From the UHGV virus genome UHGV-0319604: a stretch of DNA of 40,338 nt; one strand, written 5' to 3'. The position numbers and the translations under genes were made by a program. Within the stretch, counting starts at the first letter, position 1. Every line of letters starts with the position of its first letter. This DNA is from a virus. The notes beneath the pieces were generated by a model, which worked only from the letters and a program-made list of their open reading frames with translations, was not told the origin of the DNA and ran no database searches. Of the stretch, positions 1 to 40,338 are shown in pieces.

Positions 1-264
1 GAACATGCCGATAATCATCATACCGTCGATGCGGGTCAGCGGCGTGCCGTCCAGATGAATAAGCTTAAAGTAACCCCACTCCTCGGTATGTACGCCAGCG
101 AGCTGCAGCAGTTGCCCACCCCAGCGGGTGAATTCGCCGGTCACGGCCCAGAAGGTGCCGGTAATGCCGAAATAGTAGGTGGAAAGGATCCCCGCCGCGA
201 TGACGGCCGGTACTGGTGACCAGAACTTAACCAGGTAAGTCTGTTTGAAGTATTGCCATGACAT
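1..264 (-). CDS. yedE: YedE/YeeE-family inner-membrane protein, N-terminal part only (host flank; gene continues past window start)
   Basis: Minus-strand ORF starting at ATG 262-264 (MSWQYFKQTYLVKFWSPVPAVIAAGILSTYYFGITGTFWAVTGEF...), hydrophobic, closely resembling the N-terminus of enterobacterial YedE as recalled from memory; SD-like GAGG just upstream. Not in ORF track because it runs off the window. Confidence 0.6.
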   Translation of the reverse strand, partial: MSWQYFKQTYLVKFWSPVPAVIAAGILSTYYFGITGTFWAVTGEFTRWGGQLLQLAGVHTEEWGYFKLIHLDGTPLTRIDGMMIIGMF

Positions 265-331
265 GAGTAAGCCTCTGAACTCAGAAGGTGTATGTTGTTT
301 TAACGGTCTGGAATATATAACTTTTTTCCTT

Positions 332-364
332 TCTCCAAAACCTCTCCAAAACTTTTCTCCAAAA
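332..364. repeat. Three direct copies of TCTCCAAAA (332-340, 343-351, 356-364) between host gene and integrase; candidate integrase arm-type or att-region sites
   Basis: Seen directly in sequence ttctccaaaacctctccaaaacttttctccaaaat; location immediately outside the int gene. Confidence 0.35.
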
Positions 365-429
365 TACCTACCTTTTTTATGACCTCCATCAGGAATTAAT
401 CCTCTTCCCAGGAGCACTGCAGCGAAAAA

Positions 430-1548
430 TTAAATAGCAAGTTTGGTCCATTCCTTCCCGCGATCATCGTTGTATCTGTCAGTGGTTGACTGTGTTTTAT
501 GCCCCAGCAAAATTTTCGTATCGATCCCCTGGGCGCGGTAAAGTCGTTCGGACAATGAGCGCTGTTCGTGAAACGTTGTGGGTGTTTTTCCTGCAGGCGG
601 TACGATACCGGCTGCATCACGTGCCGCGGCAAACTCTTTGGAAACCAAAATCAGATTCACAGGTTTCGCCTTACTGTTCATTTTCCCGTGCAAGAGGTAG
701 GGACTGACAAACCTATCCCTACATTTCCGTATTACATCCTCCAGCGATAAGCCAATGGCTTCACAACGGAGGTTCAGCGGCAATGCAATACGTGCCCCCG
801 TTTTGCTTTGCTCGATGTGCAGATAGCCGTCCTTAATGTCTGAAAATTTCATGTTCGCAATATCCTCCCGGCGCTGACCAGTGACTAACGCAAGCAGCAT
901 CGCTTTATGCGAGTACCGATCCTCGGGTATTTGCGCCAGTATTTTTTTCCATTCGTCCAGAGAGAGGCGCGCACGTGTAACCTTCACCGAGGGTTTTTTT
1001 GTTGCTGCTGGTGGATTCCATCCAGGAGGCACCTCTCCTGCATGTTGTGCTTCAGTGAAAATATCCACCCATACCACCCGGTTACAGAGGGCACTGCTGG
1101 CATGTCCTGCATCCAGATATTCATCCAGTAACACGGCAAAATCCTTTACCTCCAAACTCTTCATTGGCCGGGAACCAAGCCGCCTGGAAAGCAACTCTGC
1201 CATGCGTTTTTTTTCTTTAAAGCGTTTCAGCGATAGCGATCCGGCATCCAGGCTTTGTGTCTGAATCTTCAGATATCGTTCTATCCATGCTTTGAGGCTG
1301 ATCCCGCGCTGTGCTGCTGCTTTTGGAGTATCATCAATTTGGCGCAAATAGTGCTCGGCTTCTGCTGCTGCAATTCTCTGATTTGCCGTTGTGGCTATTT
1401 TTTCCGCTTTCTCTCTGTCTGTTCCCAGGCCGTGGAACTTACCCGTTAAAGGGTTTTTATACTGGTAGTATGTTTTTGCTGTGCGACGATCAAACCGGGC
1501 ATACAGCCCGGAAATTGATACATTATTTTTTCGTGGCCTTGGTGACAT
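430..1548 (-). CDS. int: Phage integrase, tyrosine recombinase family
   Basis: 372-aa ORF; C-terminal catalytic-type motifs HEQRSLSERLY ... LLGH ... DRY (H-x-x-R and terminal Tyr); position at prophage end overlapping excisionase gene. Confidence 0.85.
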   Translation of the reverse strand: MSPRPRKNNVSISGLYARFDRRTAKTYYQYKNPLTGKFHGLGTDREKAEKIATTANQRIAAAEAEHYLRQIDDTPKAAAQRGISLKAWIERYLKIQTQSLDAGSLSLKRFKEKKRMAELLSRRLGSRPMKSLEVKDFAVLLDEYLDAGHASSALCNRVVWVDIFTEAQHAGEVPPGWNPPAATKKPSVKVTRARLSLDEWKKILAQIPEDRYSHKAMLLALVTGQRREDIANMKFSDIKDGYLHIEQSKTGARIALPLNLRCEAIGLSLEDVIRKCRDRFVSPYLLHGKMNSKAKPVNLILVSKEFAAARDAAGIVPPAGKTPTTFHEQRSLSERLYRAQGIDTKILLGHKTQSTTDRYNDDRGKEWTKLAI

Positions 1549-1882: not shown

Positions 1883-2176
1883 TCAATCGGGCGTGTTGAT
1901 AAACTTCCTCACCAGCGCAGACTCCATTCGCCTGATACAGTCGCGTATCCTTGTCATTTGCACTTCGGGAAACTGACTCCGCCCCATCTCTTCCAGTACG
2001 CTGACAAGATGGTGATCCTGGACTTTGGTCGCCAGTACGCGAGCGCATGCACGCAATGATTCTCCGATACGCCGTTTTTCTATGGCTGCAAATGCTCGGC
2101 ACAGCTCCAGAGTTACCAGCGTGTCGGGAAATTCTGCAAATCGGGTATTGGCGATAACTTCCTTTGCTTTGATCAC
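1883..2176 (-). CDS. Hypothetical early protein (97 aa), GTG start overlapping upstream stop (GTGA)
   Basis: ORF in track (1883..2218); likely start is GTG at 2174-2176 overlapping the stop codon of the upstream 626-aa gene, suggesting translational coupling. Confidence 0.4.
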   Translation of the reverse strand: MIKAKEVIANTRFAEFPDTLVTLELCRAFAAIEKRRIGESLRACARVLATKVQDHHLVSVLEEMGRSQFPEVQMTRIRDCIRRMESALVRKFINTPD

Positions 2177-4053
2177 TCTGCAATCTCCTGCTGACTGATA
2201 ACGCTGCTGGCAAGCCACACGGCCATACCCGGTAGATCATCGTACTGATTGCAGTATGCAGGGTTAGCACATAACCCCTGCAGCGCGGCGGCCGTCAGCT
2301 GCTGATGATAGGTAAGGGCGAATGTTGATGGCTCAGGTACGGAAGCAGGGCGCTGTTCTTCTGGTTTGGCTTCGATCTCTGGGGGAGGCAAAACCACAGC
2401 AACAGGTGCCTCTTCAGTTCCTTCCTGCCGATATTGTTCTAAAATGCGCGTGAGATAATCGAATCGTGTTTCAGGGTTGTCGCTCCATTCTTCGAGCGCA
2501 TTCCAGACCAGATATTCAACATCGTCATCATCAATAATTTCTGGGGTCTCGCCATTTTCCAAAGCAAAAATATCAGTCATGATCATCATTGCAATGTGCG
2601 ATGAATCATGGCCTGTATTGGAGATCAGAAGCTCTGCCTCTTCCTCGTTAAAATAGGCAGTTCTCCCTGCCAGGGTATTTTCTACCAGCGCCTTAATTGC
2701 CTCCTCTCGTGCTGACAGCACAGGTTGATCGTCATTTTTGGCAGATGTAAGCGATTCGACTGTGAAGACGCCGCCGCCCAAGTTCTCCACCCGCGGTTGA
2801 TCCCCGGTTTGATTTTCAGGTGCAGGGCTCTGAGCGAATGCCTCTTTGAGTTCTTTGTCGAGTTGCGCAGCTTTGCCAGGGCAAACTGCTGGTGGCAGAG
2901 TTTCGCCCGGTACAGTCGATTCGGTTTCATCATTTTCTTTTTTCTCAGCATTGGTGCGAGGTTTTGGACGGCAGGCCGTATCAATTGTTTTCTGGTCAGG
3001 GTGCGCGTGGTCAGATTCAACCAACTCGCGATTGATGTACTCCCGTAATTTGATCGGATTGAGCCAGATGTCTTCTGGTGCTGACTTGATCAGGGCGATG
3101 ATGGACGCACGCGAATAGTCCAAAATTCCAGGGGTGCCGCGTAGCTGCGCCCACCATGCAGTAAAACGAGGATCCTGTGCGGCTTCCGCCATTGCTTTCG
3201 CTGGAATCATGTATTTATTCGGGATCCAGTAAATGTCGATCTCGTCGTACATACTCAGAATGGCAATAGCCACTTCGATACGCAGCGTAGAGAGGTTATG
3301 AACCAGATCCGGGCTACGGTCTGTCTTGTTGCCACCACCCAGCGTGGAGCCGGTGTCTGTACGGTTTTCTTCTGTGGTTGTGGTAGACTGAGGACGCTTA
3401 TCAACTGGTGTATCGATCCATTTAGCGATCTGCTTTTTGATGTCCGGCCACTGCGCAGATCCTTTGGTGTTCTCACGTAACCAGGAGAGTAATTGCTCCT
3501 GGCGTTCCGGCGCCAACTCAAGCGCGCGGCGCTCTTTTGCAAGTGCTTCTGCAAGCTCGCGGGCAAAGCTGGGTTCATCGTCATTCCTCAAATCGACGAT
3601 CTGGCCATACTGCGCTGAAGTGATTCCAGGGACCGGGCCGAACAGTGCCAGACAAGCTGCGCGGGATGCCTGGTCGAGCTGCGCAACGATTTTAATTTCT
3701 TCCTGAGTCTTGTTGTCCTCCCATTCTTCCTTTGCTTCAGTCTCTGGCTTTGGTGCAGCAGCTGGTTCACCGCGGTTGGTATTCCAGATAACGTGATCAC
3801 CAAAGAAATCAGAGCTAAACACATCAAGCTCAGGGCAGGGGAGATCATCATGGTGTTCCCAGATTTTCACCTTAAAATAATCATCAATATGTTCAGGATG
3901 TTCTGCCGCCAGCTTACCGAAAATAACGGCTTCAGCGATGGCTTTTGTGGCCGCATTAACTGCGGTGGCAAGTGGTTTTAAATCGGGATGTTTTTTTAAT
4001 GCTTTATCTTTTGGGAAGTAAGCACCACCAAATACTTTTAACTCAACAGACAT
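2173..4053 (-). CDS. Large acidic early-left protein, possibly RecE-family (exonuclease VIII-like) N-terminal/middle region without an obvious nuclease domain
   Basis: 626-aa ORF; segment GGGNKTDRSPDLVHNLSTLRIEV...DIYWIP...LDYSRASIIALIKSAP...ESDHAHPDQKTIDTAC resembles my recollection of RecE; gene order (Zn-ribbon small gene, then large gene, then xis/int) parallels the Rac prophage. Family assignment is from memory only. Confidence 0.4.
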   Translation of the reverse strand: MSVELKVFGGAYFPKDKALKKHPDLKPLATAVNAATKAIAEAVIFGKLAAEHPEHIDDYFKVKIWEHHDDLPCPELDVFSSDFFGDHVIWNTNRGEPAAAPKPETEAKEEWEDNKTQEEIKIVAQLDQASRAACLALFGPVPGITSAQYGQIVDLRNDDEPSFARELAEALAKERRALELAPERQEQLLSWLRENTKGSAQWPDIKKQIAKWIDTPVDKRPQSTTTTEENRTDTGSTLGGGNKTDRSPDLVHNLSTLRIEVAIAILSMYDEIDIYWIPNKYMIPAKAMAEAAQDPRFTAWWAQLRGTPGILDYSRASIIALIKSAPEDIWLNPIKLREYINRELVESDHAHPDQKTIDTACRPKPRTNAEKKENDETESTVPGETLPPAVCPGKAAQLDKELKEAFAQSPAPENQTGDQPRVENLGGGVFTVESLTSAKNDDQPVLSAREEAIKALVENTLAGRTAYFNEEEAELLISNTGHDSSHIAMMIMTDIFALENGETPEIIDDDDVEYLVWNALEEWSDNPETRFDYLTRILEQYRQEGTEEAPVAVVLPPPEIEAKPEEQRPASVPEPSTFALTYHQQLTAAALQGLCANPAYCNQYDDLPGMAVWLASSVISQQEIAE

Positions 4054-16398: not shown

Positions 16399-16426
16399 GC
16401 CATCTATATTCATAGGTGGCTTTTTT
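16399..16426 (+). terminator. Rho-independent terminator after the AT-rich moron
   Basis: gccatcta-tattca-taggtggc hairpin (one mismatch) followed by tttttt. Confidence 0.5.
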
Positions 16427-16454
16427 ATGCGCAGCACACATCAAAATACACATC

Positions 16455-16994
16455 ATGCAAACAATCATGTGCATCGGTAGCGGCCCGTCGCTGGCACCGA
16501 ATGACTGCTTGCGAGCTAACGATTCAGGTCTGCCAGTTATAGCCGTTAACAACAGTTGGGCTGCAGTGCCAGGCTGTCAGCACATTTATGCAGCAGACTG
16601 CTGCTGGTGGGAAGAATACGGCGCAGGCATAACATCCAACGCTGCCCGGTGGTGTGGTGATGAGTTCACGGCCAGGCGTTTTGGCATTAACTGGCTACCT
16701 TCTGCAATACCCGGTTCGTTTAATTCTGGTCAGCGAGCGATTGAGTTGGCGATCCACCTTGGCGCCAGCCGCGTTCTGTTGCTGGGCTATGACTGCTCAA
16801 TACGAAACGGCACCCACTGGCACGGCAACCACGCTCAGCTGTCCAACCCGGACAAATTCAGCGTAGCGCGCTGGCAGGATGAATTCTCCCGCCTCAGAGT
16901 TATTGCTGGTGGTGTCGAGATAATTAACTGCTCCCGCTTTACGCGGCTTACCTGCTTTCCCCGACAGTCCCTCGAGACTGCACTTTCTCTGTAG
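16455..16994 (+). CDS. Cst-II-like (GT42/DUF115-type) nucleotide-sugar transferase-fold protein
   Basis: N-terminal IMCIGSGPSLAPND resembles the GNGPSL motif at the start of Cst-II-type sialyltransferases; later FNSGQRAIELAIHLGASRVLLLGYDCS resembles the ITSG...IALGYKEIYLSGID segment of that family. Comparison from memory; start codon uncertain (16455 or 16467). Confidence 0.45.
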   Translation: MQTIMCIGSGPSLAPNDCLRANDSGLPVIAVNNSWAAVPGCQHIYAADCCWWEEYGAGITSNAARWCGDEFTARRFGINWLPSAIPGSFNSGQRAIELAIHLGASRVLLLGYDCSIRNGTHWHGNHAQLSNPDKFSVARWQDEFSRLRVIAGGVEIINCSRFTRLTCFPRQSLETALSL

Positions 16995-17001
16995 GAAACT
17001 T

Positions 17002-17868
17002 ATGAAAAGACGAAAGGTCTGCATCCGCGGGATGTATGGGCTTGGTGACTCTATTTACCAGCGGGCGTTTGTACGCCAGTTCCCCGGTGCGTTTCTGCGT
17101 ACACCCTGGCCGGAGCTTTACAGCGATCTCGATGTGAAATTTATTCGCTCTAATACTGCGCTCAGGACTCAGCGAAAAAACGAAGAGCAAACCAACGTGG
17201 AGTTTATTCCGGAACCATCGCGGCCGTCAGAGATACTGACAATTTTTTATGGCCCCGAAGAGCTGAGCAAAGGATCCATCATTGACGCCATGACCTGGCA
17301 ATTTGGCAAGATGGCCAGCGTTTTTGATCTGCCGTCATTCGGTGAATCGCCGGTACAGGTTGATAAGCCGGTTGCAGTAATCCGTCCGGCCACCGTTCGC
17401 AAAGAGTGGGCGAACCCCGCGCGAAATCCTGACCCCAAATACCTCGCGGAAGCCGCACGCGAGCTGCGTAAACATTTTTACGTTGTGAGCCTGGCTGATC
17501 TTGAAGAGGGTGAAGAGTGGCTGGTGGGTGAACTTCCGGAGGCCGATCTCTATCTGCACAAAGGCGAGCTGTCACTAACGGAAATGCTGGCGCTGGTGGA
17601 ACATGCCGCCGTTGTGGTTTCCGGGGTTGGCTGGGCGCTGCCAGCAGCTGTCTGCTACAAAACGCCTGTTTACATCGTTCAGGGTGGATGCGGGGCCCAC
17701 AATGCCCCTCACATCGTCACCGATCCGGAAATGGATCTTTCCCGCGTCGGCTGGGCGCAACCGGATGATTACTGCATGTGCGCGAGCATGGAGCACGACT
17801 GCAGCAAGCACATCACCGGTTTCCTCGATAAATTCAAAGGCTGGCTACATGACATTGTTCTCACATGA
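17002..17868 (+). CDS. Glycosyltransferase family 9-like (heptosyltransferase-like) protein
   Basis: N-terminal VCIRGMYGLGDSIYQRAFVRQF matches the GT9 I-R-x-x-x-LGD signature; C-terminal LSLTEMLALVEHAAVVVSGVGWALPAAVCYKTPVYIV matches the GT9 C-terminal donor-binding segment. Confidence 0.55.
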   Translation: MKRRKVCIRGMYGLGDSIYQRAFVRQFPGAFLRTPWPELYSDLDVKFIRSNTALRTQRKNEEQTNVEFIPEPSRPSEILTIFYGPEELSKGSIIDAMTWQFGKMASVFDLPSFGESPVQVDKPVAVIRPATVRKEWANPARNPDPKYLAEAARELRKHFYVVSLADLEEGEEWLVGELPEADLYLHKGELSLTEMLALVEHAAVVVSGVGWALPAAVCYKTPVYIVQGGCGAHNAPHIVTDPEMDLSRVGWAQPDDYCMCASMEHDCSKHITGFLDKFKGWLHDIVLT

Positions 17869-18499
17869 AATGCAAAACGGCCTTGTATGGCTGCCCGAGC
17901 TGGGCATTGGACGTTTTCCGGTACCACCAGAGCGGCCATACGACGCCAGTTATTTTGCAAAGTATCGGCAGATGGCGCAGACCAACATGGGGATTCAGCT
18001 GAATGCGGCACGTATCCAGCTGGTGGGCCGCCATCATCAGGGCAAAGTGCTCGACGTGGGGATCGGGTCCGGTCAGTTCGTGGAGACACGGCCTGATACA
18101 TGGGGTTATGACGTTAATCCTGAAGGGATCGCCTGGCTAAAAGCTGGTGGCCGCTGGGCTAACCTTTACGACCCTTATTTCCCTGACGATGATTTTCCTG
18201 CGCTGACGTTCTGGGATTCGCTGGAGCACATCGACGATCCAGAAGCAGCTGTTGCGCGTGCTGGTCAGTGGGTTTTTGTGTCTCTGCCTGTCTTCAAAAA
18301 TGCAGAACATATCCTGACGTCCCGGCATTACCGCAAGGACGAGCACATCTGGTATTTCACCGACGAAGGCATCCGGCGCTGGTTTGACGCGCAGGGTTTC
18401 GCCTGTGCTGAACACAACACCATTGAGAGCATGTTGGGGCGGGATGGCATCAGCAGCTATGCATTCCGGAGGGTCAGCAATGCCAGCAAGAACGCCTAA
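17849..18499 (+). CDS. Class I SAM-dependent methyltransferase
   Basis: Motif I-like KVLDVGIGSGQF, followed by YDVNPEG and FWDSLEHIDDP; start ATG 17849 overlaps upstream stop by 20 nt. Confidence 0.6.
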   Translation: MTLFSHEMQNGLVWLPELGIGRFPVPPERPYDASYFAKYRQMAQTNMGIQLNAARIQLVGRHHQGKVLDVGIGSGQFVETRPDTWGYDVNPEGIAWLKAGGRWANLYDPYFPDDDFPALTFWDSLEHIDDPEAAVARAGQWVFVSLPVFKNAEHILTSRHYRKDEHIWYFTDEGIRRWFDAQGFACAEHNTIESMLGRDGISSYAFRRVSNASKNA

Positions 18500-35527: not shown

Positions 35528-36114
35528 TGGCACTGAATGATGAATATGAGCAGCTTCTCTATAAGCTGCTGCCACCCGGCCCGGCATGGGAGGGAGAGAA
35601 CCCGCTGATTGAAGGTCTGGCACCGTCTCTCACGCGCGTACATCAGCGTGCTAATGCGCTGATGAAGGAAATCGACCCGGCTCAAACGACAGAGCTGATA
35701 GACCGTTATGAAACCGTCTACGGCCTGCCCGATTCGTGTACTCCTGACGGCGTGCAGTCGCTACGACAGCGCCAGCAGCGTCTTGACGCGAAAGCCAACG
35801 TTGCGGGCGGGATTAACGAACAGTTTTACCGCAACCAGCTGGACGCGCTGGGCTACACCACGGCCACTATCGAACAGTTTCAGAACCTTGACAGCACCCC
35901 TGATCCGGAATGGGGGGAGTTCTGGCGCTATTACTGGCGCGTGAATATTCCGGCAGATGCCAATGTCAGCTGGCAGACCTGCACCAGCGCGTGCAATTCC
36001 GCAATCAGAACATGGGGCGACACGATCGCAGAGTGCGTCATTGAAAAACTGGCGCCATCGCACACCGTTGTTGTTTTCGCTTACCCGGAAGGAACAAACA
36101 ATGCATCGAATTGA
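35527..36114 (+). CDS. Tail protein (Mu gp48-like)
   Basis: 195-aa ORF immediately upstream of the tail fibre gene. Confidence 0.6.
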
Positions 36115-37480
36115 TACACCTACGGCACAGGCCGATAAATTTGGACCCGGCAAAAATGGTTTTACGAATGGCGACCCGGCGACCGGCCGCCGCGCTACCG
36201 ACCTGAACAGTGACATGTGGGATGCTGTTCAGGAGGAGATCTGCGCTGTAATTGAAAAGTCAGGGCTGGCCCTGAATAAAGATCAGCACGATCAGCTTTA
36301 TCAGGCGATCGTTAAAATTATCACTTCCAAAATTCCAGATGCTCTCCTGAAAAAAAACAACCTGTCTGACCTGACAGATAAAGTGCTGGCGCGGGCCAAC
36401 CTGCAGTTAAAGACGGCAGCGCAAAAAGATGTCGTCACCTCTAAAACTGACGTGACCGCTGATCGAGTTTTAACTACTGGCTGGATGAGTCTCGGTGGAT
36501 ACGGTACAGATAATATGATTGCGGGCGCTGATGCACTAAAACCGCTGAGAAACGGTTTTTACGGCGTACAGACTGAGCCTACATATGGAAACGCTGCGCT
36601 AATTAGCTTTGGCTATGACTCAGGTTCGCAGGTTCATATTATTGCGAGGCAGGGCGGGCAGGCTCCAGCACTGGGTGTATGTGGCTCCACGCCTCAAGGG
36701 GTGTTTGGTAACTGGGGAAAAATCTATACTGAATTTCAGAAACCCACTGCTGGGGATGTAGGTGCGCTGCCAATTGGGGGCGGAACTTTAAGCGGCGCTT
36801 TAGCTGTTGTTCAAAATGGCGCAGCAATAGCAGTCCAGAGCAGAACAGCATCTCAAGCGGTGTATATGATAGGTAAGGATTATGATGGCGCAAATTGCTG
36901 GTACGTAGGACGTGGAGGGGCTAATTACAGCATTGCACTTTATAACTATAAAGGTACTAACGGATTAAATATTAACGAAGATGGTTCAATAGCTTTAAAT
37001 CTGGCAAACGGGAAACCATTTACCATAAACGGGCAAGTGGTTCCTTCCAATTATACAAATTTTGATTCACGATATGTATTAACGGATGGAGCTACATACG
37101 CAGGATTTGTGAACGGTGATGCAACCCGGCCTTATATGCGCCATCGAGTTAGCAATGCAGTGGTGGAGCTGGCAAAAAAAGGGGATTCGTATACTAAAGC
37201 AGAGAGCGAAAGCCGCTACCAGCCAAAAGGAAATTACACCCCAGCAGGGCAGGCTTACACAAAGACTGAAAGTGATGCACGATATGTGCAAGGAGTACAG
37301 CTTGGCGCTCGGTCACTAAGTGCATCATCTAATGCTTCGGGAGGTAATCTTTATCTTCCTGCTGGTTGTGTAGCTACTGGATACACTTCGCCTGGTTCTT
37401 CTAACGCTAACGATGTGAGGTTTTACTATAAACCCATTCAGCGGAATATTAACGGAACGTGGGTAACAATCTCAGGCTAA
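36101..37480 (+). CDS. Tail fibre protein (conserved N-terminus, variable AT-richer C-terminal receptor-binding part)
   Basis: Start ATG 36101 ([29 protein letters not shown]...); tandem protein repeats [10 protein letters not shown] / [10 protein letters not shown]; GC drops in the 3' half. Confidence 0.75.
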
Positions 37481-37490
37481 AGGAATTATA

Positions 37491-38075
37491 ATGCAAAACA
37501 TTAAGAATTTTAAAGTCGTAAAACCAACACCTAAACAATTGGAACTGTATACTGCAATGGATGGAACAGTCCCTATATTCCTACAATCAGAAGACGGCAG
37601 AGATTGGTTTGAATGTCACGAATTGTTTTCAGATGAAACAGTGAAAATTATGTACGACAGCAACGGGATTATTTGCTCAGTCGTTGATGAACGAGTCCCT
37701 GAGCGAGGAAATATCTATGCGGTGTCGATGTTTTACCCTGAAAATATGAGCGTAGCTGAAGTAGCACTAAGCGATTATCCTGAAGGGGTGAATATTGACG
37801 GATCTTGGATGTATAGTGATGGGAAAATTGTTCCGGTTCCTGTTGACGTGGTTTCGGAAGCAGAAAAAGAGAAAGCGCAGCGATTAAGTGAAGCGGAGGT
37901 AGCGATTGCGCCACTTCAAAGAGCCGTAAAATACGGGATCGCTACTGATGAAGAAAAAAAATCGCTTGAAAAATGGGAAGTATACACTGTCATGCTAAGT
38001 CGTGTTAATGCTTCTCAGGCTCCGGATATTTTGTGGCCTGAGAAGCTAGGGGGAGAGACAGAAACTACAATGTGA
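37491..38075 (+). CDS. Tail fibre assembly protein
   Basis: 194-aa ORF directly after the fibre gene; C-terminal ...EKWEVYTVMLSRVNASQAPDILWP typical of Tfa chaperones. Confidence 0.7.
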   Translation: MQNIKNFKVVKPTPKQLELYTAMDGTVPIFLQSEDGRDWFECHELFSDETVKIMYDSNGIICSVVDERVPERGNIYAVSMFYPENMSVAEVALSDYPEGVNIDGSWMYSDGKIVPVPVDVVSEAEKEKAQRLSEAEVAIAPLQRAVKYGIATDEEKKSLEKWEVYTVMLSRVNASQAPDILWPEKLGGETETTM

Positions 38076-38081
38076 GGGTTC

Positions 38082-39194
38082 TTACCTTTTGGAACAATCC
38101 TCGTTACTATTCAAGCATTCATCAATCAAATCAAGTATAGGACTTACATCTGCATCCATAACGCGACGCTCTTTTAGTCTCACCTGTTTAGCTAATTTAT
38201 AGTTTGGCCCCCACACATCCGCATTATCTGCTGGGGCGACGAGTATTTTGAATGGGTAAACACAGATTAGCCTTTTCTGAAATGCTCTGGATACATGTAC
38301 AAAAGAAGTGTCTGGGGAAATAACTAGAGCGCTTTCTTTTATTATTTGTGCTGCGGAAAAGAATGACGGCGTAGTATTTTTAGTTACATTTTCTGAATCG
38401 GGGATAGATGCAATTTTATGCTGCTCCCCGAGGATGATCATGTGATACGAATTGGCGTGTTTAGCCATATGATTTGTTATGGTTTCAATTTGCGAGGCTG
38501 AAAAAAAGCGCTCGCTGACGCTACCATAAGGGATAAATGACACTATTATTTTATTAGTGGTCTTTTTAATAAATTCCTGTGCCGCATCAGCATCTTTTTT
38601 AGGAATGATAACAGAGTAATCATAATCTGTTACACTGATACCTAACCCTTCAAGCAGGTCGATGTACCGTGTGCTAATATGAGCCAAGGGATTTTTTATT
38701 TTAATGACTTCATCGTATATTCGATATTTGTTTGTAAATCCAATGGTCTTATAAGGCTTGGAGAGTCTAATTAAATTAAATGTATCAACATTAGAGTGAG
38801 TTACCTCATGCGAATCAATGAAAGTAAATGGATTGATTGCATTGAGCGCAGCAAGGAGCGGCTTTTTATTATTTGGTTCATATAAATATAACCCGTGTAA
38901 ATTTTTCCACTCTTTAAATAAAAAATAAGTTCTTTTATCTGCTATTACAGACACCCGGTAATTGTTTCTCACCAGTGTATCAATTACCCCTCCAATAACA
39001 ACAGCATCCCCAATACCTTTAGCGATGAAAGGTATTACCAAATGGTTTGTTCCCGAATCAAGCCTGTCTTTATTGCGGCGGGCGCGAGTAGCAATCTCAC
39101 TTAATAAACTCAATTTGAGCTTTAATTTTGCTCTTTTGAGATAATAATTTTTAGATCTGTTTGCTTTCCTAAGCCATTTGATCACTGTTTTCAC
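38082..39194 (-). CDS. Glycosyltransferase family 9-like (heptosyltransferase-like) protein, AT-rich moron
   Basis: 370-aa ORF; IAKGIGDAVVIGGVIDTL (GT9 N-terminal signature) and ALVISPDTSFVHVSRAFQKRLICVY (GT9 C-terminal segment); clearly lower GC than the phage backbone; opposite strand to tail genes. Confidence 0.55.
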   Translation of the reverse strand: MKTVIKWLRKANRSKNYYLKRAKLKLKLSLLSEIATRARRNKDRLDSGTNHLVIPFIAKGIGDAVVIGGVIDTLVRNNYRVSVIADKRTYFLFKEWKNLHGLYLYEPNNKKPLLAALNAINPFTFIDSHEVTHSNVDTFNLIRLSKPYKTIGFTNKYRIYDEVIKIKNPLAHISTRYIDLLEGLGISVTDYDYSVIIPKKDADAAQEFIKKTTNKIIVSFIPYGSVSERFFSASQIETITNHMAKHANSYHMIILGEQHKIASIPDSENVTKNTTPSFFSAAQIIKESALVISPDTSFVHVSRAFQKRLICVYPFKILVAPADNADVWGPNYKLAKQVRLKERRVMDADVSPILDLIDECLNSNEDCSKR

Positions 39195-39272
39195 CTTATT
39201 CTTTATATAATAATTTATCTTTATGCTAACTGAGCAGCCTCACTATATGCAATAGCGGGCTGCCCTGTGTTG

Positions 39273-39872
39273 TTAATGTTGCAGCCAGCGATCACGCGCT
39301 TGCCGTGCTATGGCGATCATTTTCTGTATCTCTCCGAGAGTGAATTTTTCTGCTTCATCACACGGCATGACCACATAGCCGGAACGGATCACATGTTCTA
39401 GGCACGAATCGGGGTTCATAACCACTTCGCCAGGCATAAGAGGGTGACAGGCCACGGGCAGGCCGTTTTCGAAATAGGTGATTACTGCGTAATTACCCTG
39501 GCGTGATGCTGCTGGGGCTCTCTTTTGCAGTTCGGCTTCCATCTGGTTAAAAGCTTTAATGTAATTGATCTTCCACTGGAGTGCTTTTTTGCCGGTGAAT
39601 CCCATGACGATTAGAGAGAAAGCATCACGGGTCATTTCGAATGCAGGTGCAGAGATTCTAGCTCCGCCGTTAGGATTTTCCCGCTCATAGTGCGTCTCCT
39701 TAAAATTCAGGAGACGCCATTCTGAGTCACACTCTGATATAACAGTTCTGATTTTTTCCATGACATTGTCATGCCGTTTTTGGAAGTAGTTGGCAACAGC
39801 AACAGATGTGGTGATCGCGCGGTTATCGCACACTTTCACTTCGGGGAGCAAGGGAGAGATTGAAGTAGTCAT
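39273..39872 (-). CDS. Rha-family phage regulatory protein
   Basis: N-terminal VCDNRAITTSVAVANYFQKRHDNVMEKIR matches the Rha-domain signature (...T.S..VA..F.KRHDNV...I). Confidence 0.6.
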   Translation of the reverse strand: MTTSISPLLPEVKVCDNRAITTSVAVANYFQKRHDNVMEKIRTVISECDSEWRLLNFKETHYERENPNGGARISAPAFEMTRDAFSLIVMGFTGKKALQWKINYIKAFNQMEAELQKRAPAASRQGNYAVITYFENGLPVACHPLMPGEVVMNPDSCLEHVIRSGYVVMPCDEAEKFTLGEIQKMIAIARQARDRWLQH

Positions 39873-39983
39873 GTAGACCTCAGCTAAGTTTTTTCGAATG
39901 ATGCCTAATGGCGCCGGGAGGTTCGAAACGGCTTAGCAAAACCGCGGACTTATTCCCCTTTCGGGTGTTGTATTAGTCGCCCT

Positions 39984-40022
39984 CCCGACCTTGATCGGGA
40001 TGCGTCCGCTAACTGCGTCCGC
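39984..40022. repeat. Hairpin cccga-ccttga-tcggg (39984-39999) plus tandem direct repeat TGCGTCCGC (40001-40009, 40014-40022) upstream of the Rha-family gene
   Basis: Seen directly in the 256-bp noncoding region upstream of rha. Confidence 0.35.
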
Positions 40023-40128
40023 GGAATGACAGGCATAAAAAATCCAACACTGACGGGGTTGGTTCTGGCCGTGCTAAAGAGGTTTCGACGCCTCGGTAGT
40101 CAGAAGGTAAGCCAGTGCTGGATTTTTG

Positions 40129-40338
40129 TCAATGTATTGAACCCAGAGGGAGCTGAAGTTTTTCGGTAACGCCTTTCCGGGCAACCATTACTGCATCAAT
40201 CCTTCCGGTGTCTGGATGAATAATTGCTGTGATTTCTGCATTCTGAGGTTTGGTCATACCGACGTCACGGAAAAAAGACTCCAGAGCATTATCGGAATCT
40301 GAGGGGGATAAAGATGCCTCGTTTTTCTTGCTATCCAT
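40129..40338 (-). CDS. Small ORF of unknown function; start coincides with window edge so it may be N-terminally truncated
   Basis: 69-aa ORF from track; downstream (minus-sense) hairpin ccaac-cccgtcagt-gttgg + T-rich run at 40036-40062 could be its terminator. Confidence 0.3.
   Translation of the reverse strand: MDSKKNEASLSPSDSDNALESFFRDVGMTKPQNAEITAIIHPDTGRIDAVMVARKGVTEKLQLPLGSIH

What the first reader, a model, noticed from the sequence alone, without database searches (positions are those of the whole stretch)
38082..39194. Second GT9-like glycosyltransferase as an AT-rich moron beside the tail fibre module
A reverse-oriented, conspicuously AT-rich gene with GT9 N- and C-terminal signatures sits directly after the tail fibre assembly gene and downstream of a Rha-family regulator gene. 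This is the classic position for lysogenic-conversion cargo, and with the GC-normal GT9 gene at 17002..17868 the prophage carries two heptosyltransferase-like genes. It probably modifies the LPS inner core, the receptor for many phages. Its basic ~50-aa N-terminal extension is unusual for GT9 enzymes.
Basis: partly seen in the sequence, partly recalled or inferred. Interest (0 to 1): 0.6.

Follow-up and report, generated by a model that had tools for sequence, protein, structure and literature searches.

The report
Prophage WaaU-like LPS glycosyltransferase beside tail fibre
An Enterobacter cloacae prophage carries an AT-rich sugar-transferase gene of the LPS heptosyltransferase family that travels between unrelated phages in one block with the tail-fibre tip and its chaperone, so it is probably cargo that remodels the cell-surface LPS core; it is a believable but fairly ordinary case of lysogenic conversion.

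Summary
A 367-aa reverse-strand gene (38082..39185; the real start is the GTG at 39185, not 39194) lies 6 bp from the tail fibre assembly gene and downstream of a Rha gene, about 1.4 kb from the prophage end. Its GC content is 37.0% against 52.3% for the window, the lowest of any stretch of that length.

It is a GT9 enzyme. Pfam is only just above threshold, but a confident AlphaFold model matches GT9 structures best, the catalytic motifs are kept, and dN/dS is about 0.1.

- It is not a WaaC/WaaF/WaaQ orthologue. Its closest named relative is E. coli K-12 WaaU, the putative outer-core HepIV transferase (hhalign 99.4%).
- The basic N-terminal helix is a hallmark of that subfamily, including waa-cluster genes in Xenorhabdus, Photorhabdus and Serratia. 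It is not an oddity of this copy.
- A 2.4-kb block of fibre tip, Tfa, GT9 and the rha 3' end is shared with a P2-like prophage. Intact orphan copies persist in the chromosome, one lineage between phage remnants.
- The "second GT9" (17002..17868) has no sequence-level hit, but its model matches TibC and GT9 folds.

No experiment links the gene to LPS or to phage exclusion. RefSeq already annotates it as GT9. It is a new member of a known kind.

The parts
38082..39185 (-). WaaU-like GT9 glycosyltransferase CDS, 367 aa with a GTG start. It is identical to RefSeq WP_062729421.1.
   Evidence: ORF. Exact-sequence look-up. Pfam GT9. AF2 model plus Foldseek. hhalign to WaaU, 99.4%. dN/dS 0.08-0.13.
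39041..39185 (-). The part of the CDS that encodes the basic N-terminal helix (about residues 1-48, motif NRxKNYxLK). This is the WaaU-subfamily hallmark and is inferred to mediate membrane or acceptor contact.
   Evidence: Helix at residues 2-39 in the model. 15 K/R against 3 D/E and no TM segment. N12, R13, N16 and K20 invariant in the family. Shared with the Xenorhabdus waa-cluster gene, the Klebsiella gene and E. coli WaaU.
39186..39272 (-). Conserved upstream intergenic region holding the Shine-Dalgarno sequence AAGGTG, a candidate weak promoter (TTAGCA, 16 nt, TATAAA) and an imperfect hairpin.
   Evidence: Alignment A5 shows conservation across five prophage and remnant copies and the icd-adjacent orphan; two of the eight aligned sequences diverge. 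The promoter scan did not call it.
37491..38075 (+). Tail fibre assembly (chaperone) gene, convergent with the GT9 gene and 6 bp away.
   Evidence: PF02413, E 8e-33. It is 70-98% identical in every GT9-carrying prophage examined.
37041..37480 (+). 3' end of the tail fibre gene (the distal tip); the gene callers place the gene at about 36101..37480.
   Evidence: Gene call of 459 aa. gp37_trimer domain. Lies inside the block shared with the P2-like prophage.
37041..39484 (.). Mobile cassette of fibre tip, Tfa, GT9, intergenic region and the 3' 210 bp of rha. It is shared at 85-87% DNA identity with prophages that have a different tail module.
   Evidence: blastn of the window against L011 (P2-like tail) and L010. 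GC of the cassette is 41.0%.
39273..39872 (-). Rha-family regulator / antirepressor-like gene upstream of the GT9 gene on the same strand.
   Evidence: PF09669, E 6e-27; TIGR02681, 111 bits. In relatives its N-terminal domain is replaced by AntA or Bro-N while the C-terminal part is kept.
39905..39989 (-). Match to Rfam sRNA-Xcc1 in the leader of rha.
   Evidence: RF02221, 72.2 bits against a gathering score of 53, E 2e-11.
276..289 (+). Candidate att core TGAACTCAGAAGGT (attL). The second copy lies just past the window end, at about 40602-40615, next to trpA.
   Evidence: 14-bp exact repeat between window 1-600 and L015 8571-8584. About 0.002 such matches are expected by chance (my arithmetic).
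17002..17868 (+). Its role is separate from the main gene and unknown.
   Evidence: No Pfam, NCBIfam or PDB sequence hit. phrog_6804, unknown function. AF2 pLDDT 94.8. Foldseek hit to TibC, E 9e-10, TMq 0.58-0.65.

Best explanation
The gene encodes an active cytoplasmic GT-B glycosyltransferase of family GT9. It belongs to the WaaU-like subfamily, marked by a basic N-terminal helix.

It is prophage cargo in an Enterobacter cloacae prophage with a Mu-like tail, integrated beside trpA. It forms part of a roughly 2.4-kb mobile cassette (tail-fibre tip, Tfa chaperone, GT9, 3' end of the upstream antirepressor-like gene) that recombines between unrelated phage backbones.

Inferred mechanism. The gene is expressed in the lysogen, either from its own weak promoter or by read-through from rha. 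The enzyme sits at the inner face of the inner membrane, probably held there by the basic helix. It transfers a sugar, most likely a heptose from ADP-heptose, onto the lipid A-core before export, adding a branch to the LPS core. By analogy with WaaU and the waa-cluster relatives, the target is more likely the outer core than the inner core.

The altered core changes the surface presented to phages, plausibly including phages that carry the linked fibre tip. That benefits the host enough for the gene to survive prophage decay.

Shown here: fold, family, conserved catalytic residues, purifying selection, cassette structure, recurrent position, orphan survival. Inferred: donor, acceptor, timing of expression, effect on phage adsorption.
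For: **Fold and family**
- Pfam GT9 above threshold.
- Family profile matches PDB 3tov at E 6e-7.
- The model has pLDDT 86.3, and its top structural hits are 3tov, WaaF and WaaC.
- The best viral matches are RfaF-like phage proteins.

**Active-site motifs kept**
- D63 lies in the GD motif and equals WaaC D13.
- R229 stands in place of K192.
- E257 is kept.
- D295-T-S..H300 corresponds to the WaaC D261 motif.

**Subfamily**
- hhalign to E. coli K-12 WaaU gives 99.4%, E 2e-21, over 327 columns including the N-terminal helix. WaaC gives 12% and WaaQ 72%.
- BLASTP to WaaU gives 25% identity, E 3e-17.

**LPS-core link for the subfamily.** Relatives at 23-29% identity sit inside waa clusters between waaQ/GT4 genes and waaC-waaF. 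This holds in Xenorhabdus, Photorhabdus, Serratia, Erwinia, Buttiauxella, Scandinavium and two Klebsiella species, about 27 of 75 distant loci.

**Selection.** dN/dS is 0.08-0.13 against six relatives, and all are full length.

**Cargo position and mobility**
- The gene is third from the prophage end.
- It is convergent with Tfa in Mu-like, P2-like and lambdoid-fibre prophages, with different upstream genes: Rha, AntA, Bro-N, UmuDC.
- The cassette boundaries are 37041-39484.
- Every Tfa at 70% identity or more that I found is accompanied by the gene; those at 51% or less are not.

**Retention after prophage decay**
- An intact orphan copy is flanked by rha and fibre remnants (L007/L099).
- Other orphans sit at icd and between yeaH and yeaK.
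Against: - No experiment or expression data exist, and no LPS structure is known for this strain.
- The Pfam score is marginal (23.5 against 22) and covers only the C-terminal half.
- No curated NCBIfam equivalog is reached.
- WaaU itself is only a "putative" HepIV transferase in the K-12 annotation, so the functional analogy rests on an uncharacterised enzyme.
- Identity to waa-cluster relatives is below 35%, so donor and acceptor may differ.
- No sigma-70 promoter was called upstream.
- The 6-bp convergent junction with Tfa leaves no room for a terminator, so late transcription could interfere with the gene.
- Low GC is family-wide and says nothing specific about this copy.
- Linkage to the fibre tip could be simple hitch-hiking at a recombination hotspot.
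- No deposited cultured phage carries the gene.
Confidence: 0.55

Rival explanations
1. A host-benefit LPS gene that merely hitch-hikes. It modifies LPS (or ECA or capsule) for reasons unrelated to phage adsorption, such as serum, bile or antimicrobial-peptide resistance. It lies next to the fibre tip only because the fibre/Tfa end is a recombination hotspot near the att site.
For: The commonest relative (P0016, 72% identity, found in 237 collection blocks) is a stand-alone chromosomal gene between yeaH and yeaK with no phage genes nearby. Distant relatives occupy the same yeaK locus in Klebsiella and Raoultella, or sit in waa clusters. Low GC is typical of the whole family. PADLOC gives no defence-system match.
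Against: The cassette boundary includes the fibre tip and Tfa, and it moves as one block between Mu-like and P2-like tails. The GT9 gene was found with every close Tfa relative. Even a 23%-identical relative (L104) and a 59% one (L023) abut tail-fibre sequences.
Confidence: 0.27
2. A protein glycosyltransferase like the autotransporter heptosyltransferases TibC and Aah. It would heptosylate a protein substrate, such as the tail fibre or a host surface protein, rather than LPS.
For: GT9-like enzymes of the TibC/Aah type exist. The gene is adjacent to tail fibre genes. TibC appears among the structural matches (rank 36).
Against: TibC matches far worse (TM 0.42, E 6e-6) than WaaF, WaaC and 3tov (TM 0.63-0.65, E 1e-11 to 6e-14). 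The closest sequence relative is WaaU, and relatives sit in waa clusters. No conserved cysteine cluster appears among the invariant columns. The gene is convergent with the late tail operon and so is not co-transcribed with it.
Confidence: 0.05
3. A decaying or silent remnant with no current function.
For: The promoter is not detectable by consensus. The Pfam score is marginal. AT-rich DNA of this kind is often silenced in enterobacteria (general knowledge, not tested here).
Against: dN/dS is about 0.1. All 40 or so relatives are full length at 360-372 aa. The catalytic residues and the N-terminal motif are invariant. Intact copies outlive the surrounding prophage.
Confidence: 0.04

Closest known systems
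E. coli K-12 WaaU (b3623, formerly RfaK), the putative ADP-heptose:LPS heptosyltransferase IV of the outer core
   Same: Same GT9 subfamily. hhalign gives 99.4%, E 2e-21, over 327 columns, and BLASTP gives 25% identity, E 3e-17. Shared features are the basic N-terminal helix ahead of the GD motif, the ISxDTxxVH motif and the W-x-P-N segment. The length is similar (357 aa).
   Different: WaaU lies in the chromosomal waa cluster; this gene lies in a prophage cassette. Only about 25% identity, so acceptor and even donor may differ. WaaU itself is annotated only as "putative".
LPS inner-core heptosyltransferases WaaC (HepI), WaaF (HepII) and WaaQ (HepIII)
   Same: GT-B fold of family GT9. The catalytic Asp of the N-terminal GD motif and the D(T/S)Gxx-H donor motif align.
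   Different: Scores fall far below the curated equivalog cut-offs. hhalign to WaaC gives only 12%. These enzymes lack the roughly 48-residue N-terminal helix. K192 of WaaC is replaced by Arg.
Uncharacterised GT9 genes inside the waa clusters of Xenorhabdus, Photorhabdus, Serratia, Erwinia and others
   Same: Same subfamily, with the N-terminal NRxxN..K motif, at 23-29% identity over nearly the full length. They are also more AT-rich than their flanks.
   Different: They are core-cluster residents rather than phage cargo, and none has a demonstrated function as far as I could find.
Seroconverting prophage cargo beside the tail genes and att site, e.g. gtrABC of Shigella phage SfV and Salmonella P22, and O-acetyltransferases (from general knowledge, not tested here)
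   Same: Same genomic logic: a surface-glycan modifying gene between the tail-fibre module and the attachment site, believed to alter the phage receptor in lysogens.
   Different: Gtr systems use a bactoprenol-linked sugar and a periplasmic-face GT-C enzyme acting on O-antigen. This is a single cytoplasmic GT-B enzyme, most likely acting on the core. No GtrA or GtrB partner is present.
TibC/Aah autotransporter heptosyltransferases
   Same: GT9-like GT-B fold.
   Different: For this gene TibC is a much weaker structural match (TM 0.42). TibC is instead the best match for the other ORF, 17002..17868.

Membership tests
CAZy GT9 / Pfam PF01075 (Glyco_transf_9) | Profile score at or above Pfam's gathering threshold | tested here: met
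   23.5 bits against a cut-off of 22, E 4e-5, residues 148-313. The margin is small. A family profile matches PDB GT9 entry 3tov at E 6e-7.
CAZy GT9 / Pfam PF01075 (Glyco_transf_9) | GT-B two-Rossmann fold closest to solved GT9 structures | tested here: met
   AF2 pLDDT 86.3, pTM 0.84. Top Foldseek PDB hits are 3tov, 1psw (WaaF), and 6dfe and 2gt1 (WaaC), with E 6e-14 to 5e-11 and TM 0.61-0.65.
CAZy GT9 / Pfam PF01075 (Glyco_transf_9) | Catalytic Asp in the N-terminal GD motif, and the D-(T/S)-(G/S)..H donor-binding motif | tested here: met
   G62-D63 and D295/H300 are invariant across the family and align with the corresponding WaaC, WaaF and WaaQ residues. The WaaC K192 position holds an invariant Arg (R229). 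The WaaC residue numbering is from memory of the published structures.
LPS heptosyltransferase I (WaaC), TIGR02193 | Equivalog score at or above the curated cut-off | tested here: not met
   20.6 bits against 185.3. hhalign to E. coli WaaC gives 12% probability.
LPS heptosyltransferase II (WaaF), TIGR02195 | Equivalog score at or above the curated cut-off | tested here: not met
   12.2 bits against 134.6.
LPS heptosyltransferase III (WaaQ), TIGR02201 / NF007742 | Equivalog score at or above the curated cut-off | tested here: not met
   No hit at E <= 1. hhalign to E. coli WaaQ gives 72%, E 3e-5, without the N-terminal region.
WaaU-like (HepIV-type) GT9 subfamily | Full-length homology to WaaU, including the basic N-terminal helix | tested here: met
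   hhalign 99.4%, E 2e-21, query 17-357 against WaaU 9-345. Alignment A4. BLASTP E 3e-17.
WaaU-like (HepIV-type) GT9 subfamily | Transfers heptose from ADP-heptose to an outer-core acceptor | not testable with these tools
   Needs enzymology or LPS mass spectrometry. WaaU itself is annotated as "putative".
Lysogenic-conversion cargo (moron) | Lies inside a prophage, outside the essential modules, near the tail-fibre end and the att site | tested here: met
   Order is int at 430..1548, then the tail fibre, Tfa, GT9, Rha, a 69-aa ORF, the candidate attR, then trpA.
Lysogenic-conversion cargo (moron) | Atypical composition and orientation relative to neighbouring phage genes | tested here: met
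   37.0% GC against 55.1% for the structural module, and the gene is on the opposite strand. Caveat: low GC is family-wide.
Lysogenic-conversion cargo (moron) | Own promoter and terminator; expressed in the lysogen | tested here: inconclusive
   The upstream 75 bp are conserved, with a TTAGCA-16-TATAAA candidate, but the promoter scan did not call it and there is no terminator at the 6-bp junction with Tfa. Expression cannot be tested here.
Lysogenic-conversion cargo (moron) | Changes a host surface phenotype or phage susceptibility | not testable with these tools
   Requires LPS profiling and adsorption assays.
TibC/Aah protein heptosyltransferases (BAHT) | Closest structural match, plus a conserved Cys metal-binding cluster | tested here: not met
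   TibC ranks 36th, TM 0.42. No cysteine appears among the invariant or nearly invariant columns.
Known anti-phage defence systems (PADLOC) | Match to any PADLOC model | tested here: not met
   No match for the GT9 protein, Rha or the 69-aa ORF.

The most novel reading that the evidence does not exclude
The 2.4-kb block is a self-contained "bind and mask" module. The WaaU-like transferase caps the very LPS-core epitope recognised by the fibre tip it travels with. A phage that acquires the cassette then gains a new receptor specificity and, as a prophage, immunity of its host to adsorption by phages with the same tip. The transferase is useful enough to be kept by the host after the prophage has decayed.
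Probability: 0.25. Interest if true: 0.6.

Novelty: new member of a known kind. Interest (0 to 1): 0.38.

Why it matters
If the enzyme remodels the LPS core in lysogens, it would be a single-gene, cytoplasmic route to receptor conversion, distinct from the well-studied O-antigen Gtr and acetyltransferase systems. It would also affect phage-therapy design for the Enterobacter cloacae complex, where LPS-core genes are already implicated as phage receptor determinants (PMC12578640). The co-transfer of fibre tip, chaperone and transferase gives a directly testable hypothesis that links a receptor-binding protein to a receptor-modifying enzyme. It also points to an uncharacterised WaaU-like GT9 subfamily that is widespread in enterobacterial waa clusters.

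Tried and rejected
- **E. coli and deposited phages.** megablast of the gene and of the left end against 5,426 E. coli genomes found nothing. megablast of 37400-40338 against deposited phages matched only a short stretch near rha. tblastn of the protein against deposited phages gave only two remote Campylobacter phage hits.
- **afdb50 fold library.** It was unavailable.
- **tRNA at the integration site.** None was found.
- **Promoter and terminator scan.** Nothing convincing lies upstream of the gene.
- **PADLOC.** No hits for the GT9/Rha/69-aa genes or for the left-end AT-rich ORFs.
- **Literature.** Searches for prophage GT9 or heptosyltransferase conversion found no functional study. The one mention is a table abbreviation, "RfaC, LPS heptosyltransferase", among accessory genes of E. 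cloacae mobile elements (PMC13612085).
- **Klebsiella WabI/WabJ.** I tried to relate the waa-cluster relatives to these enzymes. The key paper is not held, other searches gave no sequence-level information, and the lead was dropped.
- **Fibre tip.** It has no characterised phage relative that would reveal the receptor.
- **ORF 17002..17868 as GT9.** Sequence and profile tests were negative: hhalign 2%, and no Pfam, NCBIfam or PDB sequence hit. Only the fold comparison was positive.
- **Rejected readings.** The gene is not an inner-core WaaC/F/Q orthologue, and it is not a TibC-like protein glycosyltransferase.
Full report
**1. What is in the sequence**

The reverse-strand ORF 38082..39194 (370 aa) exists. 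The exact 367-aa product that starts at the GTG at 39185 is RefSeq WP_062729421.1, "glycosyltransferase family 9 protein [Enterobacter cloacae]". It is encoded on GCA_001525285.1 contig LRJH01000012.1.

The start at 39194 is not conserved. That GTG lies inside the Shine-Dalgarno sequence AAGGTG, which reads AAGGAG in relatives, and all homologues begin at the position equivalent to 39185.

The gene has 37.0% GC (GC3 33.7%), against 52.3% for the window and 55.1% for the structural module. It is the lowest-GC stretch of its length in the window.

- The convergent neighbour at 37491..38075 is a tail fibre assembly protein (PF02413, E 8e-33). Its stop codon is 6 bp away.
- The upstream gene on the same strand, 39273..39872, is Rha (PF09669, E 6e-27).

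**2. Is it a GT9 enzyme?**

Pfam PF01075 is only just above threshold: 23.5 bits against 22, covering residues 148-313. Independent evidence is stronger.

- A profile of 15 family members matches the Veillonella GT9 structure 3tov at E 6e-7 over residues 43-311.
- An AlphaFold2 model built on that alignment is confident (pLDDT 86.3, pTM 0.84).
- Its best Foldseek matches in the PDB are 3tov, E. coli WaaF (1psw) and E. coli WaaC (6dfe, 2gt1, 2h1f, 2h1h). These have E 6e-14 to about 4e-10 and TM 0.61-0.65, well ahead of other GT-B enzymes.
- In the viral structure library the best matches are RfaF-like phage proteins.

In alignments with Xenorhabdus and E. coli WaaC, WaaF and WaaQ, several residues are invariant. 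They are the Asp of the N-terminal GD motif (D63, equivalent to the WaaC catalytic Asp), the D295-T-S motif and H300. The WaaC lysine before the W-P motif is replaced by an invariant Arg, R229.

Pairwise dN/dS against six relatives is 0.08-0.13. The gene is therefore a maintained and probably active GT9 enzyme.

**3. Which GT9?**

It is none of the three inner-core enzymes. NCBIfam HepI scores 20.6 bits against a cut-off of 185, HepII scores 12.2 against 135, and HepIII gives no hit.

| E. coli K-12 enzyme | hhalign result (family profile) |
|---|---|
| WaaU (putative outer-core HepIV transferase) | 99.4%, E 2e-21, 327 aligned columns |
| WaaQ | 72% |
| WaaC | 12% |

BLASTP to WaaU gives 25% identity, E 3e-17.

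The roughly 48-residue N-terminal extension is one long helix in the model (residues 2-39). Its first 45 residues hold 15 K/R against 3 D/E, and there is no transmembrane segment. WaaC, WaaF, WaaQ and 3tov lack it.

The extension and its NRxKNYxxK motif are shared more widely:
- by WaaU;
- by relatives at 22-34% identity in many Enterobacterales;
- in weaker form, by Fusobacterium genes.

About 27 of 75 distant loci place the relative inside a waa cluster. The Xenorhabdus kozodoii example reads waaA | waaQ, GT4, GT4, this GT9, unknown, GT4, mig-14 | waaC, waaF. The same holds in Photorhabdus, Serratia, Erwinia, Buttiauxella, Scandinavium and two Klebsiella species. About 12 more lie next to yeaK-DUF441 in Klebsiella and Raoultella. 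None of these reaches a curated equivalog either.

The extension is thus a hallmark of an uncharacterised WaaU-like subfamily tied to LPS core clusters, not a peculiarity of the phage copy. "LPS core" is a reasonable target, but "inner core" has no support. Every family member is 4-17 GC points below its flanks, including the waa-cluster copies. Low GC is therefore a family trait.

**4. Genomic setting**

The window is a prophage of about 40.3 kb. A lambda-type integrase lies at 430..1548. A 14-bp direct repeat, TGAACTCAGAAGGT, occurs at 276-289 and again about 265 bp past the window end, next to trpA. The order at the right end is tail fibre, Tfa, then (reverse strand) GT9, Rha, a 69-aa ORF, the candidate attR, and trpA.

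Close relatives of the transferase occur in the same convergent position against Tfa in other prophages:

| Locus | GT9 identity to the window protein | Setting |
|---|---|---|
| L008 | 96% | AntA upstream |
| L010 | 88% | Bro-N upstream, Mu-like tail |
| L011 / L100 | 85% | UmuDC upstream, P2-like tail |
| L101 | 79% | Rha upstream |
| L023 | 59% | beside a lambda-Stf-type fibre and a DUF4376 protein |
| L104 | 23% | abuts fibre repeats |

DNA comparison defines a shared block at window 37041-39484. It comprises the fibre tip, Tfa, GT9, the intergenic region and the last 210 bp of rha. It is 87% identical to the P2-like prophage and 85% identical to L010, while the rest of the tail modules differ. 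Every Tfa relative at 70% identity or more that I found is accompanied by the transferase; those at 51% or less are not.

**5. Orphan copies**

Several relatives are stand-alone chromosomal genes:
- between yeaH and yeaK (P0016, 72% identity, the commonest member);
- beside icd (78%); icd is a classical lambdoid integration site (general knowledge);
- beside umuDC and a T6SS Hcp gene;
- beside DUF535/yebY (88%).

The last of these, and an IMG/VR contig, still carry a rha 3' remnant upstream and a fibre 5' remnant downstream. The deletion ends 37 nt inside the transferase gene's 3' end, yet the reading frame is intact. That lineage therefore derives from a decayed prophage in which the transferase was kept.

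**6. Mechanism (inferred)**

I infer that the enzyme acts on lipid A-core at the cytoplasmic face of the inner membrane, as other GT9 enzymes do. It would add a heptose, or another sugar, as a branch on the core. The basic helix probably contributes membrane or acceptor contact.

Expression is unresolved. The 75 bp upstream are conserved even in the icd orphan and hold a TTAGCA-16-TATAAA candidate promoter, but the consensus scan did not call it. Read-through from rha is possible. The rha leader matches Rfam sRNA-Xcc1 at 72 bits. The 6-bp convergent junction leaves no room for a terminator.

Co-transfer with a fibre tip suggests, but does not show, that the modification affects the receptor of that tip. 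Fibres of Mu-, P1- and P2-type phages with Tfa chaperones classically bind the LPS core (general knowledge). The tip here has no characterised relative.

**7. The "second GT9"**

ORF 17002..17868 (54.6% GC) has no Pfam, NCBIfam or PDB sequence match. hhalign against the GT9 alignment gives 2%. It belongs to phrog_6804, of unknown function.

A model built on 23 homologues is very confident (pLDDT 94.8). Its best PDB matches are the protein heptosyltransferase TibC (E 9e-10, TMq 0.58-0.65), followed by WaaF, 3tov and WaaC. The family has an invariant GLGD motif and an invariant C258-x-C260...H265-x-C267 cluster.

It sits between an MptE-like/phrog_4603 gene (16416..16994) and a methyltransferase. 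The same trio lies between the lysis and terminase genes in a Serratia prophage, and fused forms of 419-504 aa exist.

**8. Novelty**

RefSeq already calls the protein GT9. One 2026 survey lists "RfaC, LPS heptosyltransferase" among accessory genes of E. cloacae mobile elements, without analysis (PMC13612085). I found no functional study and no description of the fibre-tip/Tfa/transferase cassette.

No deposited phage genome carries the gene. Seven IMG/VR contigs encode a relative, three of them close.

This is a new member of a known kind, namely prophage-borne surface-glycan glycosyltransferases. The assignment to the WaaU-like subfamily and the cassette linkage are the points of modest interest.

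Noticed in passing
window 16416..18499 (ORFs 16416..16994, 17002..17868, about 17870..18499): A three-gene module lies between the lysis genes and the small terminase. It comprises an MptE-like/phrog_4603 protein, a 288-aa protein with no sequence family whose confident model matches the protein heptosyltransferase TibC best (with an invariant CxC...HxC cluster), and a SAM methyltransferase. The same trio sits in the same place in a Serratia prophage (L107), and fused versions of 419-504 aa exist. It may be a protein- or glycan-modifying system of unknown target.
   Followed up: partly
window 39905..39989 (-): A full-length match to Rfam sRNA-Xcc1 (RF02221, 72 bits against a gathering score of 53) lies immediately upstream of the rha start codon. 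It could be a structured leader or sRNA that controls rha and possibly the downstream transferase.
   Followed up: no
window 276..289 and L015 8571..8584 (about 265 bp past the window end): A 14-bp exact direct repeat, TGAACTCAGAAGGT, flanks the prophage and is the candidate att core. The prophage is about 40.3 kb and sits between trpA and a membrane-protein gene whose 5' end occupies window 1..263 (-).
   Followed up: partly
L007 9738..11876, L099; L012/L013/L021; L001-L006: Intact orphan copies of the transferase lie at three chromosomal sites in Enterobacter: beside DUF535/yebY, beside icd, and between yeaH and yeaK. The yebY-side copy is still bracketed by rha and tail-fibre remnants, which shows that the gene outlived its prophage.
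   Followed up: partly
L065, L066, L074, L076, L084, L087, L088, L092-L094, L102: Klebsiella and Raoultella species carry a 22-25%-identical WaaU-like GT9 gene next to yeaK-DUF441, the locus that holds the Enterobacter orphan, but in the opposite orientation. In K. pneumoniae ATCC 13883 it is followed by umuDC.
   Followed up: no
L008, L010, window 39273..39872: The gene upstream of the transferase keeps the same C-terminal 70-85 residues, while its N-terminal domain is swapped among Rha, Bro-N and AntA. This is a mosaic antirepressor-like protein.
   Followed up: no
window 2173..4053 (-): A 626-aa ORF next to the integrase/excision region has no Pfam or PADLOC match. Its 5' end falls within the only other low-GC patch in the window (1113-bp windows starting at 3691-3991, minimum about 41% GC).
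   Followed up: partly
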